Source: a virus. Taken from it: a DNA stretch of 64,000 nucleotides. Location: UHGV virus genome UHGV-0307316; one strand, written 5' to 3'. A model generated the notes under the pieces. That model was not told where the DNA came from, did not search any database, and was given only the letters and a program-made list of their open reading frames with translations. This document shows positions 16,799 to 18,714 of the stretch, in pieces. The translations under genes were made by a program, and so were the position numbers. Each line of letters begins with the position of its first letter. Position 1 is the first letter of the stretch.

Positions 16799-17170
16799 AT
16801 GAAAAACAGAACAAACAAAGGCCAGTTTAAAAAAGGCCAGTCTGGAAACCCATCTGGAAGACCAAAAGGCTCTCGTAACAAAAGCTCACTTGTAAAAGCT
16901 CAACTGACCATTGATAATTCTGCTGAGTTTGCTGCAAAGTTGTTTGAGGCGGTTGTTACAAGGGATGCTGCTAAGCTTGCAGAGTTCGGTTTGACGACTG
17001 ACGATGTAAACCTGAAGTCGATGATGGAGGCTGGTAAAACCATCATGACTCACTCAGCAGGTGAGATGAAAGCGATTGCAGCAGACACTAAGAAGACCCC
17101 TGATAATGGTGGTCAGTCTCAGACAGATAACAAACCAACGTTCTCTGCTGTAGCGACTCTCAAAAAATAA
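16799..17170 (+). CDS. hypothetical protein with basic Gly/Pro/Lys-rich N-terminus
   Basis: ORF; N-terminal KGQSGNPSGRPKG motif suggests nucleic-acid binding. Confidence 0.5.
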   Translation: MKNRTNKGQFKKGQSGNPSGRPKGSRNKSSLVKAQLTIDNSAEFAAKLFEAVVTRDAAKLAEFGLTTDDVNLKSMMEAGKTIMTHSAGEMKAIAADTKKTPDNGGQSQTDNKPTFSAVATLKK

Positions 17171-17251
17171 TTTTAAAAGGTGTTGACAGACTCTACAAAG
17201 TTGCTCTAAAGTCTGTCACATCAACAAACAAATGAGAGAAGAGAGTAAAAT

Positions 17252-18667
17252 ATGAGCGAATTATTTAAACATGCGCACCTTCATGCAGGTCGAACTGAAA
17301 ATGGTGCTGTAAACCATACTTCATCAATGTCTGCTCTTGTAGACTTTTACAAAGCTGCTGGTTCAAGCCGTAGCAACGTAGAAATCTTACCAGACCTGTT
17401 CTACAAAGCTTTGCGTGAGGATGTTGATGTTGCAGTTCGTATTTTGCTTCATATGCGAGATGTACGAGAAGGTATGGGTGAGCGTAAAGCCTTCAGAACT
17501 GTTTTACTTCAAGCGATTGAAGACAAAGTTTTAGAGCCTACGCAGGTTCTTCGCATTATGGATAAGATTGCAGAACTTGGTCGTTTTGATGACTTCAAAA
17601 TCTTCGTAGGTACTCGTTTCGAGACAGATGCCTTCAAACATCTAGAAGCAGCATTACTAGACCCTGCAACAGCAGGTTTGGCGGCTAAGTGGTTACCACG
17701 AGTCAAACCACGTCATAAGCAGTTTGTAAAACGTTTCTGCAAGTTTGCCAACTTGAGTGAGAAAGAGTACCGCACACTGTTGTCTGCACTATCTGATACA
17801 GTTGAGCAAAAAATCTCTGCTAATGAGTTTGGTAAGATTGACTACAGTAAGATTCCTTCACTTGCTGCTGCACGTTACCAAAAACTGTTTAACCGCAAAG
17901 ATGGAGAACGCTACAAAGCTTACATCGAGTCCTTATCAAAGGGTGAGACTAAGATTAATGCTGGTGCTGTTTACCCATACGATGTAATTAAATCTGTTAA
18001 GCATGGTAATGCAGATGTTGCTAATGAGCAGTGGAAAGCACTACCAAACTGGATGGCAGAGGGTGAAAACATCTTGTGTATGTCTGATGTTTCAAGCTCA
18101 ATGTCTTGGGTGAATTTTGGTTCAATTACTGCTCTTGATATTGGTGTTTCACTTGCATTGTATGTAGCAGAACGTAATACAGGTTGCTTTAAGAATGAGT
18201 TGATGGTTTATTCAACAAACCCTCACTTCATCGAACTGAGTGGTGATTTACGAAACCGTCATCGTCAGGTGATGCGACACGTTGAATATGGCTCAACTAA
18301 CTTACAAGCAGCTTTTGACCGCATTCTTGAGATAGGTAAGAGAAACAACTTGACTCAGAAAGATATGCCAAGTAAGCTTATCATCTTCTCCGATATGGAG
18401 TTCAATCAGGTTGATGGGGCTAACGGTCGTACAAACTTTGAAGCAATTCAGAGTAAGTACAAAAAAGCTGGATACGAAATGCCTCAACTGGTATTCTGGT
18501 ACTTAGCAAACCGTAATGGTACTTGCGAAGTGTCTGTTAAGGATAACGGTGTAGCAATTGTATCTGGTTTTTCTCCAGCTACTTTAAAAGCTCTGCTTGG
18601 TGGTGAGAAGTTTGACCCAATCAGCGTAATGCTCAAAGCAGTAATGATTGACCGTTATATCTGGTAA
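17252..18667 (+). CDS. vWA/MIDAS-domain protein with N-terminal helical domain (candidate Ro60/Rsr-like RNA-binding protein)
   Basis: C-terminal 190 aa has a MIDAS-like DVSSSMS motif; N-terminal 270 aa predicted helical; GAGAG RBS; lies directly upstream of tRNA array. Confidence 0.65.
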   Translation: MSELFKHAHLHAGRTENGAVNHTSSMSALVDFYKAAGSSRSNVEILPDLFYKALREDVDVAVRILLHMRDVREGMGERKAFRTVLLQAIEDKVLEPTQVLRIMDKIAELGRFDDFKIFVGTRFETDAFKHLEAALLDPATAGLAAKWLPRVKPRHKQFVKRFCKFANLSEKEYRTLLSALSDTVEQKISANEFGKIDYSKIPSLAAARYQKLFNRKDGERYKAYIESLSKGETKINAGAVYPYDVIKSVKHGNADVANEQWKALPNWMAEGENILCMSDVSSSMSWVNFGSITALDIGVSLALYVAERNTGCFKNELMVYSTNPHFIELSGDLRNRHRQVMRHVEYGSTNLQAAFDRILEIGKRNNLTQKDMPSKLIIFSDMEFNQVDGANGRTNFEAIQSKYKKAGYEMPQLVFWYLANRNGTCEVSVKDNGVAIVSGFSPATLKALLGGEKFDPISVMLKAVMIDRYIW

Positions 18668-18685
18668 AAAGTTTTAAAAAGGGTA

Positions 18686-18714
18686 TTGACAATGTGTTTG
18701 ATACCCTTTAATAT
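18686..18714 (+). promoter_or_regulatory. sigma70-like promoter upstream of tRNA array
   Basis: TTGACA-N17-TAATAT; overlaps IR GGGTAT/ATACCC. Confidence 0.55.

What the first reader, a model, noticed from the sequence alone, without database searches (positions are those of the whole stretch)
17252..18667. vWA/MIDAS protein directly upstream of the tRNA array: candidate Ro60/Rsr-like RNA-binding protein
The 471-aa product has an N-terminal helical region of about 270 aa followed by a C-terminal domain with a MIDAS-like DVSSSMS motif. This matches the overall TROVE-plus-vWA layout of Ro60-family proteins, which bind tRNA-like Y RNAs. The gene has its own RBS and is followed by a promoter feeding into the tRNA/ncRNA array. 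Assignment to Ro60 rather than another vWA family is not established from sequence alone.
Basis: inference. Interest (0 to 1): 0.6.

Follow-up and report, generated by a model that had tools for sequence, protein, structure and literature searches.

The report
Phage Ro60-like protein with partner RNAs
This FelixO1-type phage gene encodes a protein with the fold of the RNA-binding Ro60 autoantigen, and four small RNAs that look like its partners, one with a rearranged tRNA shape, sit just downstream inside the tRNA gene cluster; the same protein-RNA pairing recurs across many phages and bacteria, and a near-identical protein is reported to defeat a bacterial anti-phage defence.

Summary
Window 17252-18667 (+) encodes a 471-aa protein with a helical N-terminal part and a vWA domain with a complete MIDAS motif, directly upstream of 26 tRNA genes in a Felixounavirus genome.

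It is 98% identical to Bas63 gp130. A 2024 preprint already described gp130 as Ro60-like and as a counter to the Ppl defence, so the protein call is not new.

What appears new is four candidate partner RNAs in the tRNA array (18999-19778). Each is closed by a terminal helix followed by UWCAGCAA. The fourth holds a permuted tRNA-like domain laid out as in YrlA. The same module lies beside this protein family on the same strand in 55/75 viral and 68/80 bacterial loci, and no Rfam family covers it.

RNA binding is inferred, not shown. The motif also resembles Dictyostelium Class I RNAs; that lead is untested.

The parts
17183..17212 (+). sigma-70-like promoter site upstream of the gene (TTGACA-18-TAAAGT)
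   Evidence: a consensus match only, function not shown
17252..18667 (+). Ro60-like protein gene (471 aa; DUF2828 helical domain about residues 1-265, DUF7788 vWA/MIDAS domain about residues 274-455); orthologue of Bas63 gp130
18678..18709 (+). 12-bp inverted repeat just after the stop codon, overlapping a promoter-like site (18686-18714); possible terminator/operator
   Evidence: also conserved in Moogle; function not tested
18777..18806 (+). second promoter-like site (TTGACA-18-TAAAGT with TG) feeding the tRNA/RNA array
18999..19076 (+). yA: short candidate partner RNA between tRNA-Glu and tRNA-Met. Outer helix UGAC/GUCA, internal loop AGA/G, inner helix AGACCAA/UUGGUCU, then UUACAGCAA
   Evidence: split-PWM score 23.0, rank 1 in the window
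19165..19230 (+). yB: short candidate partner RNA between tRNA-Met and tRNA-Asn. Outer helix UUGC/GCAA, inner helix AGACCGU/ACGGUCU, then AUUCAGCAA
   Evidence: score 19.3, rank 3; weak Rfam Dicty_Class_I hit 19173-19226 at 24 bits
19554..19633 (+). yC: short candidate partner RNA. Outer helix GAGC/GCUC, inner helix AGACCAA/UUGGUCU, then AUACAGCAA
   Evidence: fold z -2.4; score 17.3, rank 5
19641..19778 (+). yD: long YrlA-like candidate partner RNA. Same closing module enclosing V hairpin (19675-19698), T arm GAAGG-UUCGAUU-CCUUC (19700-19716), closed 7-bp acceptor-like hairpin (19717-19734) and D arm (19736-19752)
   Evidence: score 20.8, rank 2
18833..24396 (+). array of 26 tRNA genes in which yA-yD are embedded; flanking tRNAs would provide RNase P/3'-processing sites that release the small RNAs (inferred)
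   Evidence: processing is inference

Best explanation
The gene encodes a Ro60-like RNA-binding protein: a helical-repeat domain packed against a vWA/MIDAS domain. It belongs to the DUF2828/DUF7788 family, a sister of canonical TROVE Ro60. Its likely ligands are the four small RNAs yA-yD encoded 0.3-1.1 kb downstream on the same strand. Each has its 5' and 3' ends paired in a terminal helix, with an AGA/G internal loop in this phage lineage, followed at once by a single-stranded UWCAGCAA tract. This tract plays the role that the CGAA-containing stem plays for canonical Y RNAs. The RNAs would be transcribed with the tRNA array from the promoters after the gene and cut out by the enzymes that process the flanking tRNAs. 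yD carries a circularly permuted tRNA-like module (V, T, closed acceptor, D) like bacterial YrlA. By analogy with Rsr/Y RNA/PNPase, it would present a tRNA-shaped handle that tethers or decoys a tRNA-recognising host factor. The RNP serves the phage during infection: the 98%-identical Bas63 gp130 is needed for normal plaques on a host carrying the Ppl defence system. Shown: the fold, the homology of the C-terminal half, the existence, conservation and structure of the RNAs, their co-occurrence with the protein family, and (from the literature) the anti-Ppl phenotype. Inferred: that the protein binds these RNAs, how they are processed, and what the tRNA-like module recruits.
Against: No Pfam TROVE hit. 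The N-terminal halves alone give no profile signal (E 0.34), so the helical-domain relationship rests on predicted structure only. I could not inspect coordinates, so ring closure and a central cavity are unverified. The RNAs lack the canonical GNCGAA/CGAA Ro-binding motif. yD does not reach any Rfam threshold. No binding or expression data exist for the RNAs. gp130 alone, from a plasmid or inserted in T7, restores T7 growth on the Ppl strain, so at least that activity does not need the phage RNAs. 20 of 75 viral and 12 of 80 bacterial loci showed no proximal module with my pattern.
Confidence: 0.62

Rival explanations
1. The protein acts purely as a protein-level inhibitor. Its vWA/MIDAS domain binds and blocks a host defence protein such as Ppl. 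The Ro60-like fold is only ancestry, and the neighbouring RNAs are not its ligands.
For: gp130 alone rescues T7, which lacks these RNAs, on the Ppl strain and even improves plating beyond the no-defence control. MIDAS residues are invariant, and vWA/MIDAS domains are classic protein-binding modules (generic vWA hits).
Against: It does not explain why a specific RNA module sits on the same strand beside this gene family in 55/75 viral and 68/80 bacterial loci and in mycobacteriophages. Canonical Ro60 also has a conserved MIDAS and is an RNA binder. Host RNAs could substitute in the T7 experiment.
Confidence: 0.2
2. The CAGCAA elements are cis-acting features, such as leaders, autoregulatory operators on the gene's mRNA, or processing/termination signals, rather than free trans-acting partner RNAs.
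For: In bacterial genomes they lie overwhelmingly upstream of the gene (118 upstream against 14 downstream hits), as a 5' leader would. No expression data show discrete small RNAs.
Against: In this window they lie downstream of the gene, beyond two promoter-like sites, each framed by tRNA genes. They occur as tandem arrays of up to five copies. Many carry tRNA-like domains with T, acceptor and D arms, which is the design of stable RNAs rather than leaders. Even as operators they would still be bound by the protein.
Confidence: 0.1
3. The elements are decayed tRNA genes or selfish repeats that accumulate in tRNA arrays, and their nearness to the gene is incidental.
For: yD contains tRNA-derived arms. 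Rfam's tRNA model aligns half of it at 22 bits. Pseudo-tRNAs are annotated in related arrays.
Against: The short forms have no tRNA similarity. The closing helix covaries while CAGCAA stays invariant across Proteobacteria, Actinobacteria and Firmicutes phages and hosts. Only 21 of 60 environmental loci have tRNAs nearby, whereas most have the module.
Confidence: 0.04

Closest known systems
Bas63 (JohannRWettstein) gp130, a Felixounavirus anti-Ppl factor (PhageMaP preprint, PMC11482910)
   Same: 98% identical protein in the same genomic position, directly upstream of tRNA-Pro. The authors noted high structural similarity to Ro60 and guessed that some neighbouring 'tRNA genes' might be Y RNAs.
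   Different: This is essentially the same gene. The preprint did not identify any RNA. The elements found here lie in the spacers, not among the annotated tRNAs, and in the Bas63 record yD is overlain by a minus-strand 'hypothetical protein' (bas63_0137).
Bacterial Rsr (Ro60) with YrlA/YrlB Y RNAs (Chen et al. 2014, PMC4201824; Rfam RF02553)
   Same: Helical repeats plus vWA/MIDAS. Partner RNAs are encoded within a few kb on the same strand. One long RNA has a permuted tRNA-like domain in V-T-AS-D order, alongside short RNA(s) without it. The 5' and 3' ends pair to form the protein-binding stem.
   Different: Different Pfam families (TROVE + vWA_Ro60 against DUF2828 + DUF7788). About 70-90 residues shorter. 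RNA signature UWCAGCAA instead of GNCGAA(N)G. Rfam YrlA scores of 21-39 bits against a cut-off of 69. Here the RNAs are embedded in a phage tRNA array. No conserved RtcB/RtcA neighbour.
Thermus phage phiLo phiRo60 with Yrl1/Yrl2 (PMC12135203; PDB 9l5y, 9kop)
   Different: phiRo60 is a canonical TROVE protein whose RNAs carry CGAA. It has been shown to bind its RNAs and host PNPase, whereas nothing has been shown biochemically for this family.
Dictyostelid Class I RNAs (Rfam RF01414; PMC7919456)
   Same: About 60-nt RNAs with a 6-bp terminal stem joining the 5' and 3' ends, a conserved 11-nt CCUUACAGCAA directly after the 5' stem strand, a CUG(U) 3' end, a variable interior and clustered multi-copy genes. 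This is the same design as yA-yC and the short elements elsewhere.
   Different: They are eukaryotic, with a DUSE promoter, and were reported as unique to Dictyostelia. The known direct binder is the RRM protein Rnp1A. The Rfam model scores phage elements at only 19-24 bits (cut-off 41.5). Whether Dictyostelium has a DUF2828 protein could not be checked.

Membership tests
Ro60/Rsr (TROVE family) | Match to the Pfam TROVE domain (PF05731) | tested here: not met
   hmmscan at E<=10 gives DUF7788, DUF2828 and weak VWA_2 only. Genuine phage Ro60 proteins hit TROVE at 1e-47 to 1e-50. hhalign of the N-terminal halves gives probability 0.2%, E 0.34.
Ro60/Rsr (TROVE family) | C-terminal vWA domain with MIDAS motif (DxSxS...T...D) of the Ro60 type | tested here: met
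   D279, S281, S283, T349 and D381 are invariant. hhalign to the Ro60 alignment gives E 7e-6 over residues 221-447 against Ro60 298-528, including the RIHP helix. The best sub-threshold PDB sequence hits are Ro60 itself.
Ro60/Rsr (TROVE family) | Overall fold: helical-repeat domain packed against the vWA domain as in Ro60 crystal structures | tested here: met
Ro60/Rsr (TROVE family) | Closed ring with a central cavity that admits single-stranded RNA ends | not testable with these tools
   The model's coordinates cannot be inspected here. The protein is about 70 residues shorter than vertebrate Ro60 but the same size as ring-shaped phiLo phiRo60.
Ro60/Rsr (TROVE family) | Y RNA partner encoded nearby on the same strand | tested here: met
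   yA-yD lie 0.3-1.1 kb downstream on the same strand. Family-wide co-occurrence is shown. These are candidates by sequence, structure and position only.
Ro60/Rsr (TROVE family) | Ro-binding RNA motif GNCGAA(N)G / CGAA in the terminal stem | tested here: not met
   The conserved tract is UWCAGCAA. GCAGAAG in Felixounavirus is one mismatch from the motif but is not conserved in P778 or other lineages.
Ro60/Rsr (TROVE family) | Demonstrated binding of Y RNA or misfolded RNA | not testable with these tools
   Needs RIP/CLIP or EMSA.
DUF2828 + DUF7788 (PHROG 850) | Matches to both Pfam domains above the curated cut-offs, and a full-length match to PHROG 850 | tested here: met
   DUF7788 148 bits (cut-off 27.1) and DUF2828 103.5 bits (cut-off 29). 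phrog_850 at 1e-182 over residues 1-471.
YrlA Y RNA (Rfam RF02553), for yD | Score at or above the Rfam gathering cut-off (69 bits) | tested here: not met
   No YrlA hit on the window at E<=10. Related elements score 21.7 (LilDestine), 38.9, 39.2 and 28.7 bits.
YrlA Y RNA (Rfam RF02553), for yD | Four stem-loops in the order V, T, AS (closed acceptor), D, enclosed by paired 5'/3' ends, with tRNA-like T and D loops | tested here: met
   MFE fold. A fully compensatory AS hairpin in Moogle. 13 of 14 diverse relatives have the AS hairpin at offset 0 after the T stem, p 2.5e-8. The T-loop GTTC-A--C is invariant.
Dictyostelium Class I RNA (Rfam RF01414), for yA-yC | Rfam gathering score (41.5 bits); DUSE promoter about 60 nt upstream | tested here: not met
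   Best scores are 24 bits (yB), 18.9 and 24.3. A eukaryotic promoter element does not apply to a phage.
Dictyostelium Class I RNA (Rfam RF01414), for yA-yC | Short terminal stem plus an 11-nt motif (positions 3, 6, 9, 10, 11 = U, C, C, A, A) adjacent to the 5' stem strand | tested here: inconclusive
   The C, C, A, A positions are matched in all elements and the U in most (against PMC7919456). Seven shared bases plus a stem could be convergence.

The most novel reading that the evidence does not exclude
DUF2828/DUF7788 proteins with their terminal-helix + UWCAGCAA RNAs form a second, so far undescribed Ro60/Y-RNA-like ribonucleoprotein system. It is spread through phages and bacteria and reaches eukaryotes. 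On this reading the abundant Class I RNAs of dictyostelid amoebae (terminal stem + CCUUACAGCAA, function unknown, thought unique to Dictyostelia) are members of the same RNA family, and their missing partner is a DUF2828-type Ro60-like protein, possibly DDB_G0281243, the uncharacterised protein pulled down with Class I RNA DdR-21.
Probability: 0.2. Interest if true: 0.85.

Novelty: new variant of a known kind. Interest (0 to 1): 0.7.

Why it matters
Ro60 and its Y RNAs are a conserved but still poorly understood RNA-surveillance module. This work indicates a second, sequence-distinct Ro60-like family. In the phage collection it is about twice as common as canonical Ro60 (710 against 358 records), and it comes with its own RNA partners and its own recognition motif. 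One member already has a genetic phenotype: it counters the Ppl defence. Naming the candidate RNAs makes the mechanism directly testable. Do yA-yD bind the protein? Does the tRNA-like RNA recruit or decoy a host tRNA enzyme or nuclease? Is the RNP what protects the phage? It also corrects annotation, because spurious ORFs overlie yC/yD in public records. Finally, it offers an unexpected lead on the unexplained Class I RNAs of Dictyostelium.

Tried and rejected
1. A covariance model of the closing module with the loop trimmed to 12 nt recovered none of the four window elements and returned only generic hairpins (<=13.8 bits, E about 1). This was a design flaw, because real loops are 31-102 nt, so the test says nothing either way. 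A split PWM plus pairing scan replaced it.

2. I thought the N-terminal motifs RDxRxGxGER and GRWDDLL resembled the TROVE signatures RGWGR and GWxHRDLLRL. hhalign of the N-terminal halves did not support this (E 0.34), so I dropped it.

3. MAFFT alignment of 14 long elements (A3) scrambled the AS/D region and was unfit for pair counting. I used a direct hairpin-against-shuffle test instead.

4. A search for a conserved protein partner (RtcB, ligase, PNPase) next to the gene across 79 loci found only clade-specific neighbours.

5. PADLOC and NCBIfam gave nothing. A single-sequence PDB search gave nothing significant.

6. Literature searches for the ACAGCAA motif were swamped by primer sequences. 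Searches for FelixO1 ncRNAs and DDB_G0281243 were uninformative. No supplements were held for the two key papers.

7. A guessed Bas63 accession from memory was wrong (it was Bas51) and was corrected from the paper.

8. The AFDB fold search, intended to check Dictyostelium and other eukaryotes, was unavailable.

9. The Rfam Dicty_Class_I model gave only three weak hits (19-24 bits), so the Class I link is not established.

Full report
**Context.** The window is a FelixO1-type phage genome (Felixounavirus, Ounavirinae). The 1,416-bp query matches 251 phage records, the best at 99.4% identity. ORF 17252..18667 (+) encodes 471 aa and is followed by 26 tRNA genes on the same strand, from 18833 to 24396. 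It covers the helical N-terminal part of about 265 residues, the C-terminal alpha/beta domain with DVSSSMS at 279-285, a purine-rich SD-like tract, and promoter-like sites before and after the gene.

**What family the protein belongs to.**
- Pfam assigns DUF2828 (E 1.5e-29) and DUF7788 (E 2.8e-43), with a weak VWA_2 match and no TROVE match.
- PHROG 850, named 'RNA-binding protein', matches end to end at 1e-182. PADLOC and NCBIfam give nothing.
- The family is large: 2,436 hits, and every listed one has the same two-domain architecture.
- By tblastn it is present in 710 phage records, including Escherichia, Salmonella, Vibrio, Listeria, Staphylococcus, Campylobacter, Enterococcus and Bacillus phages. 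It is also in a group of about 75-kb mycobacteriophages such as LilDestine, where it is annotated 'Ro-like RNA binding protein'.
- In 46 homologues down to 40% identity, the full MIDAS set (D279, S281, S283, T349, D381) and many basic residues in the helical part are invariant.

**Is it Ro60-like?**
- An AlphaFold2 model built on that alignment is confident (pLDDT 87.4, pTM 0.87).
- Foldseek against the PDB returns Ro60/Rsr/TROVE structures as the top 11 hits. All are full-length alignments, with E 1e-7 to 5e-6 and TMq up to 0.66. Generic vWA domains follow only from E 2.7e-3 at TMq about 0.2.
- For a sequence-level test I used a human Ro60 sequence recalled from memory only as bait. I verified it against PDB 9nen_A (1,224 bits over residues 1-538).
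- With that bait I retrieved genuine phage Ro60 genes: 358 phage records, none of them Felixounavirus. I confirmed that they hit Pfam TROVE and vWA_Ro60.
- hhalign of the DUF2828 family alignment against this Ro60 alignment gives probability 84.5% and E 7e-6 over 206 columns. These cover the last helices of the helical domain and the whole vWA domain.
- The N-terminal halves alone give no signal (E 0.34).

In summary, the fold is Ro60-like over the full length, and homology is supported for the C-terminal half. The protein is a member of a sister family, not of Pfam TROVE.

**Prior knowledge.** Bas63 (JohannRWettstein, MZ501086) gene bas63_0130 lies in the same position and its product is 98% identical. 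The PhageMaP preprint (PMC11482910) reports four relevant points:
- gp130 has 'high structural similarity to Ro60'.
- Its deletion gives small plaques on a strain carrying the Ppl defence system, and complementation restores them.
- gp130 alone improves T7 growth on that strain.
- The authors guess that some neighbouring tRNA genes might be Y RNAs.

**Candidate partner RNAs in the window.** Reading the spacers of the tRNA array, I found four exact copies of CAGAAGACC-N5-CAGCAA at 19002, 19168, 19557 and 19644, all on the + strand. Each is followed 40-110 nt later by GGUCUGG.
- All four fold alike. There is a 4-bp outer helix, an asymmetric internal loop (AGA on the 5' side, G on the 3' side), an inner helix AGACCnn/nnGGUCU, and then a single-stranded UWCAGCAA tract.
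- The outer helix differs among the copies in a compensatory way: UGAC/GUCA, UUGC/GCAA, GAGC/GCUC and UUAC/GUAA.
- yA and yB exactly fill tRNA-tRNA spacers. yC and yD lie between tRNA-Asp and tRNA-Lys.
- yD (19641-19778) encloses four stem-loops: a V hairpin, a T arm (GAAGG-UUCGAUU-CCUUC), a closed 7-bp hairpin that starts at the nucleotide after the T stem, and a D arm.
- That V-T-AS-D order, enclosed by paired ends, is the layout Chen et al. 2014 describe for YrlA, the tRNA-like Y RNA of bacterial Rsr.
- Rfam does not claim yD. Its tRNA model aligns only half of it, at 22 bits.

**Conservation in relatives.**
- The 796-nt region is present at >=80% coverage in 237 phage records.
- Citrobacter phage Moogle has all four elements. 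Its inner-helix changes keep pairing through G.U wobbles, and its AS hairpin has a completely different sequence that still pairs: CCCUUC/GAAGGG against ACUCGGC/GUCGAGU in the window.
- Yersinia phage P778 (53% protein identity) has GCACAGGACUGU-UUACAGCAA...ACAGUCC-A-GC and related copies. These carry double compensatory changes in the inner helix while YAGCAA is unchanged.

**Generality.**
- In mycobacteriophage LilDestine (33% protein identity) three elements of the same design follow the gene directly. The middle one has T, AS and D arms and a weak full-length Rfam YrlA match of 21.7 bits.
- I fetched 75 diverse IMG/VR loci and scanned for '>=6-bp helix, 1-5 nt, CAGCAA, 10-220 nt, pairing strand'.
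- On the gene's strand the density is 0.91/kb in the 600 nt upstream and 1.17/kb in the 600 nt downstream. It is about 0.2/kb far away and 0.02-0.14/kb on the opposite strand. 55 of 75 loci are positive.
- In 80 bacterial-genome loci (of at least 453; many Clostridia, some on Mb-scale contigs) the upstream density is 2.68/kb against 0.05/kb on the opposite strand. 68 of 80 are positive, often with tandem arrays of 2-5 copies.
- The consensus is AGR-NNNN / nUW-CAGCAA / variable / NNNN-YCU-G.

**The long form.**
- Fourteen long elements from unrelated loci share the invariant T..CAGCAA and GTTC.A..C positions.
- These elements were selected only on the closing helix, the motif and a T-loop. Even so, 13 of 14 have a 5-8-bp hairpin starting exactly after the T stem. 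All 14 hairpin sequences differ (Fisher combined p 2.5e-8 against shuffles), and the hairpin is usually followed by U/UA and a D arm.
- The Rfam YrlA model gives sub-threshold hits on three of them: 38.9 bits (E 5e-5), 39.2 bits (E 4e-5) and 28.7 bits (E 0.05).
- In Clostridial loci some elements carry an unpermuted tRNA cloverleaf in the loop.
- No curated Rfam family covers the short form.

**Independent check on the window.**
- A covariance model with a trimmed loop failed for design reasons.
- A split PWM plus pairing scan, trained only on 68 non-Ounavirinae elements, ranks yA (23.0), yD (20.8) and yB (19.3) first to third over both strands of the 64-kb window. yC (17.3) ranks fifth.
- Shuffled windows give 0.33 hits >=18 per window.
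- Elsewhere in the window the loose pattern hits only coding sequence, without the full signature.

**Context clues.**
- No protein neighbour is conserved across lineages.
- tRNAs lie within 5 kb in 21 of 60 environmental loci, always on the gene's strand. The tRNA-array setting is therefore frequent but not obligatory, whereas the RNA module is the constant companion.

**Mechanism.** The best-supported reading is a Ro60-like RNP. The protein binds small RNAs through their terminal helix and the adjacent UWCAGCAA tract, and the tRNA-like RNA offers a tRNA-shaped handle for a host factor. This parallels the way Y RNA tethers Rsr to PNPase (PMC4201824) and phiLo phiRo60/Yrl binds host PNPase (PMC12135203). 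The Ppl phenotype places the system in counter-defence. gp130 alone works in T7, so the RNAs are not strictly required for that activity, and a purely protein-level MIDAS-mediated inhibition remains a live rival. Binding, processing and the recruited factor are all inferences.

**Side lead.** Rfam's Dictyostelium Class I RNA model weakly hits yB (24 bits), a LilDestine element (18.9) and an environmental element (24.3).
- Class I RNAs are about 60-nt RNAs with a 6-bp terminal stem. They have a conserved CCUUACAGCAA right after the 5' stem strand, a CUGU 3' end and a variable interior. Their function is unknown and they are reported as unique to Dictyostelia (PMC7919456).
- One of the four proteins pulled down with a Class I RNA, DDB_G0281243, is uncharacterised.
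- Full-text hits for DUF2828 come from plant papers. From memory, not tested here, Pfam also lists the family in eukaryotes.
- I could not check Dictyostelium because AFDB was unavailable. The resemblance may be convergence.

**Verdict.** The protein call is already in the literature for a 98%-identical orthologue. The associated RNA family and its tight, cross-phylum linkage to DUF2828/DUF7788 proteins appear undescribed. Together they make this a new variant of the Ro60/Y-RNA theme with an experimentally accessible phenotype.

Noticed in passing
window 19173-19226; L006 6511-6557; L080 6937-6991: Rfam's Dictyostelium Class I RNA model weakly hits three of the CAGCAA elements (19-24 bits). 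Class I RNAs share the design: a terminal stem, CCUUACAGCAA and a CUG(U) 3' end. DDB_G0281243, an uncharacterised Class I RNA pull-down protein, could not be checked for DUF2828.
   Followed up: partly
window 20175-20407: A near-consensus promoter (TTGACA-17-TATAGT, 11/12) is followed by a 200-nt non-coding stretch that folds unusually well (-58.8 kcal/mol, z -3.6, 0/200 shuffles). Only weak tmRNA-like Rfam hits fall here. It may be another structured RNA in the array.
   Followed up: partly
window 20408-20486: A tRNA-like sequence (Rfam tRNA 31.7 bits, just above the cut-off) that ARAGORN does not call. The equivalent is annotated as tRNA-Arg in Bas63 and Moogle. It may be a pseudo-tRNA or an atypical tRNA.
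   Followed up: no
window 19579-19755 (+) and 19615-19872 (-); L005 12749-12901: Mechanical ORFs overlie yC/yD. In the Bas63 GenBank record a minus-strand 'hypothetical protein' (bas63_0137) is annotated over yD. This is probably a mis-annotation of an RNA gene.
   Followed up: partly
window 20724-21128: A Cys-rich 134-aa ORF inside the tRNA array with weak, sub-threshold HNH endonuclease matches (E about 0.006). It may be a homing endonuclease.
   Followed up: partly
window 16799-17170: The co-oriented upstream gene encodes a DUF5681 protein with a basic Gly/Pro/Lys-rich N-terminus. It is conserved in the same position in Si3, Moogle, Bas63 and P778. Any link to the Ro60-like gene is unknown.
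   Followed up: partly
L025 4633, L027 6867, L028 6472, L032 6472, L071 6089: The CAGCAA closing helix GGAUCG/CGAUCC encloses an insert of about 215 nt with no T-loop. This is a larger structured RNA of unknown kind using the same closing module.
   Followed up: no
L157 2689-2761; L138 2844-2906; L167 472-541: In Clostridial genomes some CAGCAA elements hold a complete, unpermuted tRNA-like cloverleaf in their loop (Rfam tRNA 41-46 bits). The tRNA-like cargo therefore occurs in at least two topologies.
   Followed up: partly
window 18678-18709: A 12-bp perfect inverted repeat lies immediately after the gene's stop codon and overlaps the -35 hexamer of a promoter-like site. It is conserved in Moogle and may be a terminator or an operator.
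   Followed up: no
L030 10696-10922; L036 1257-1707; L037 10822-11176: Environmental phage contigs that carry the gene also hold a group I intron (71.5 bits) and phage-encoded tmRNAs.
   Followed up: no
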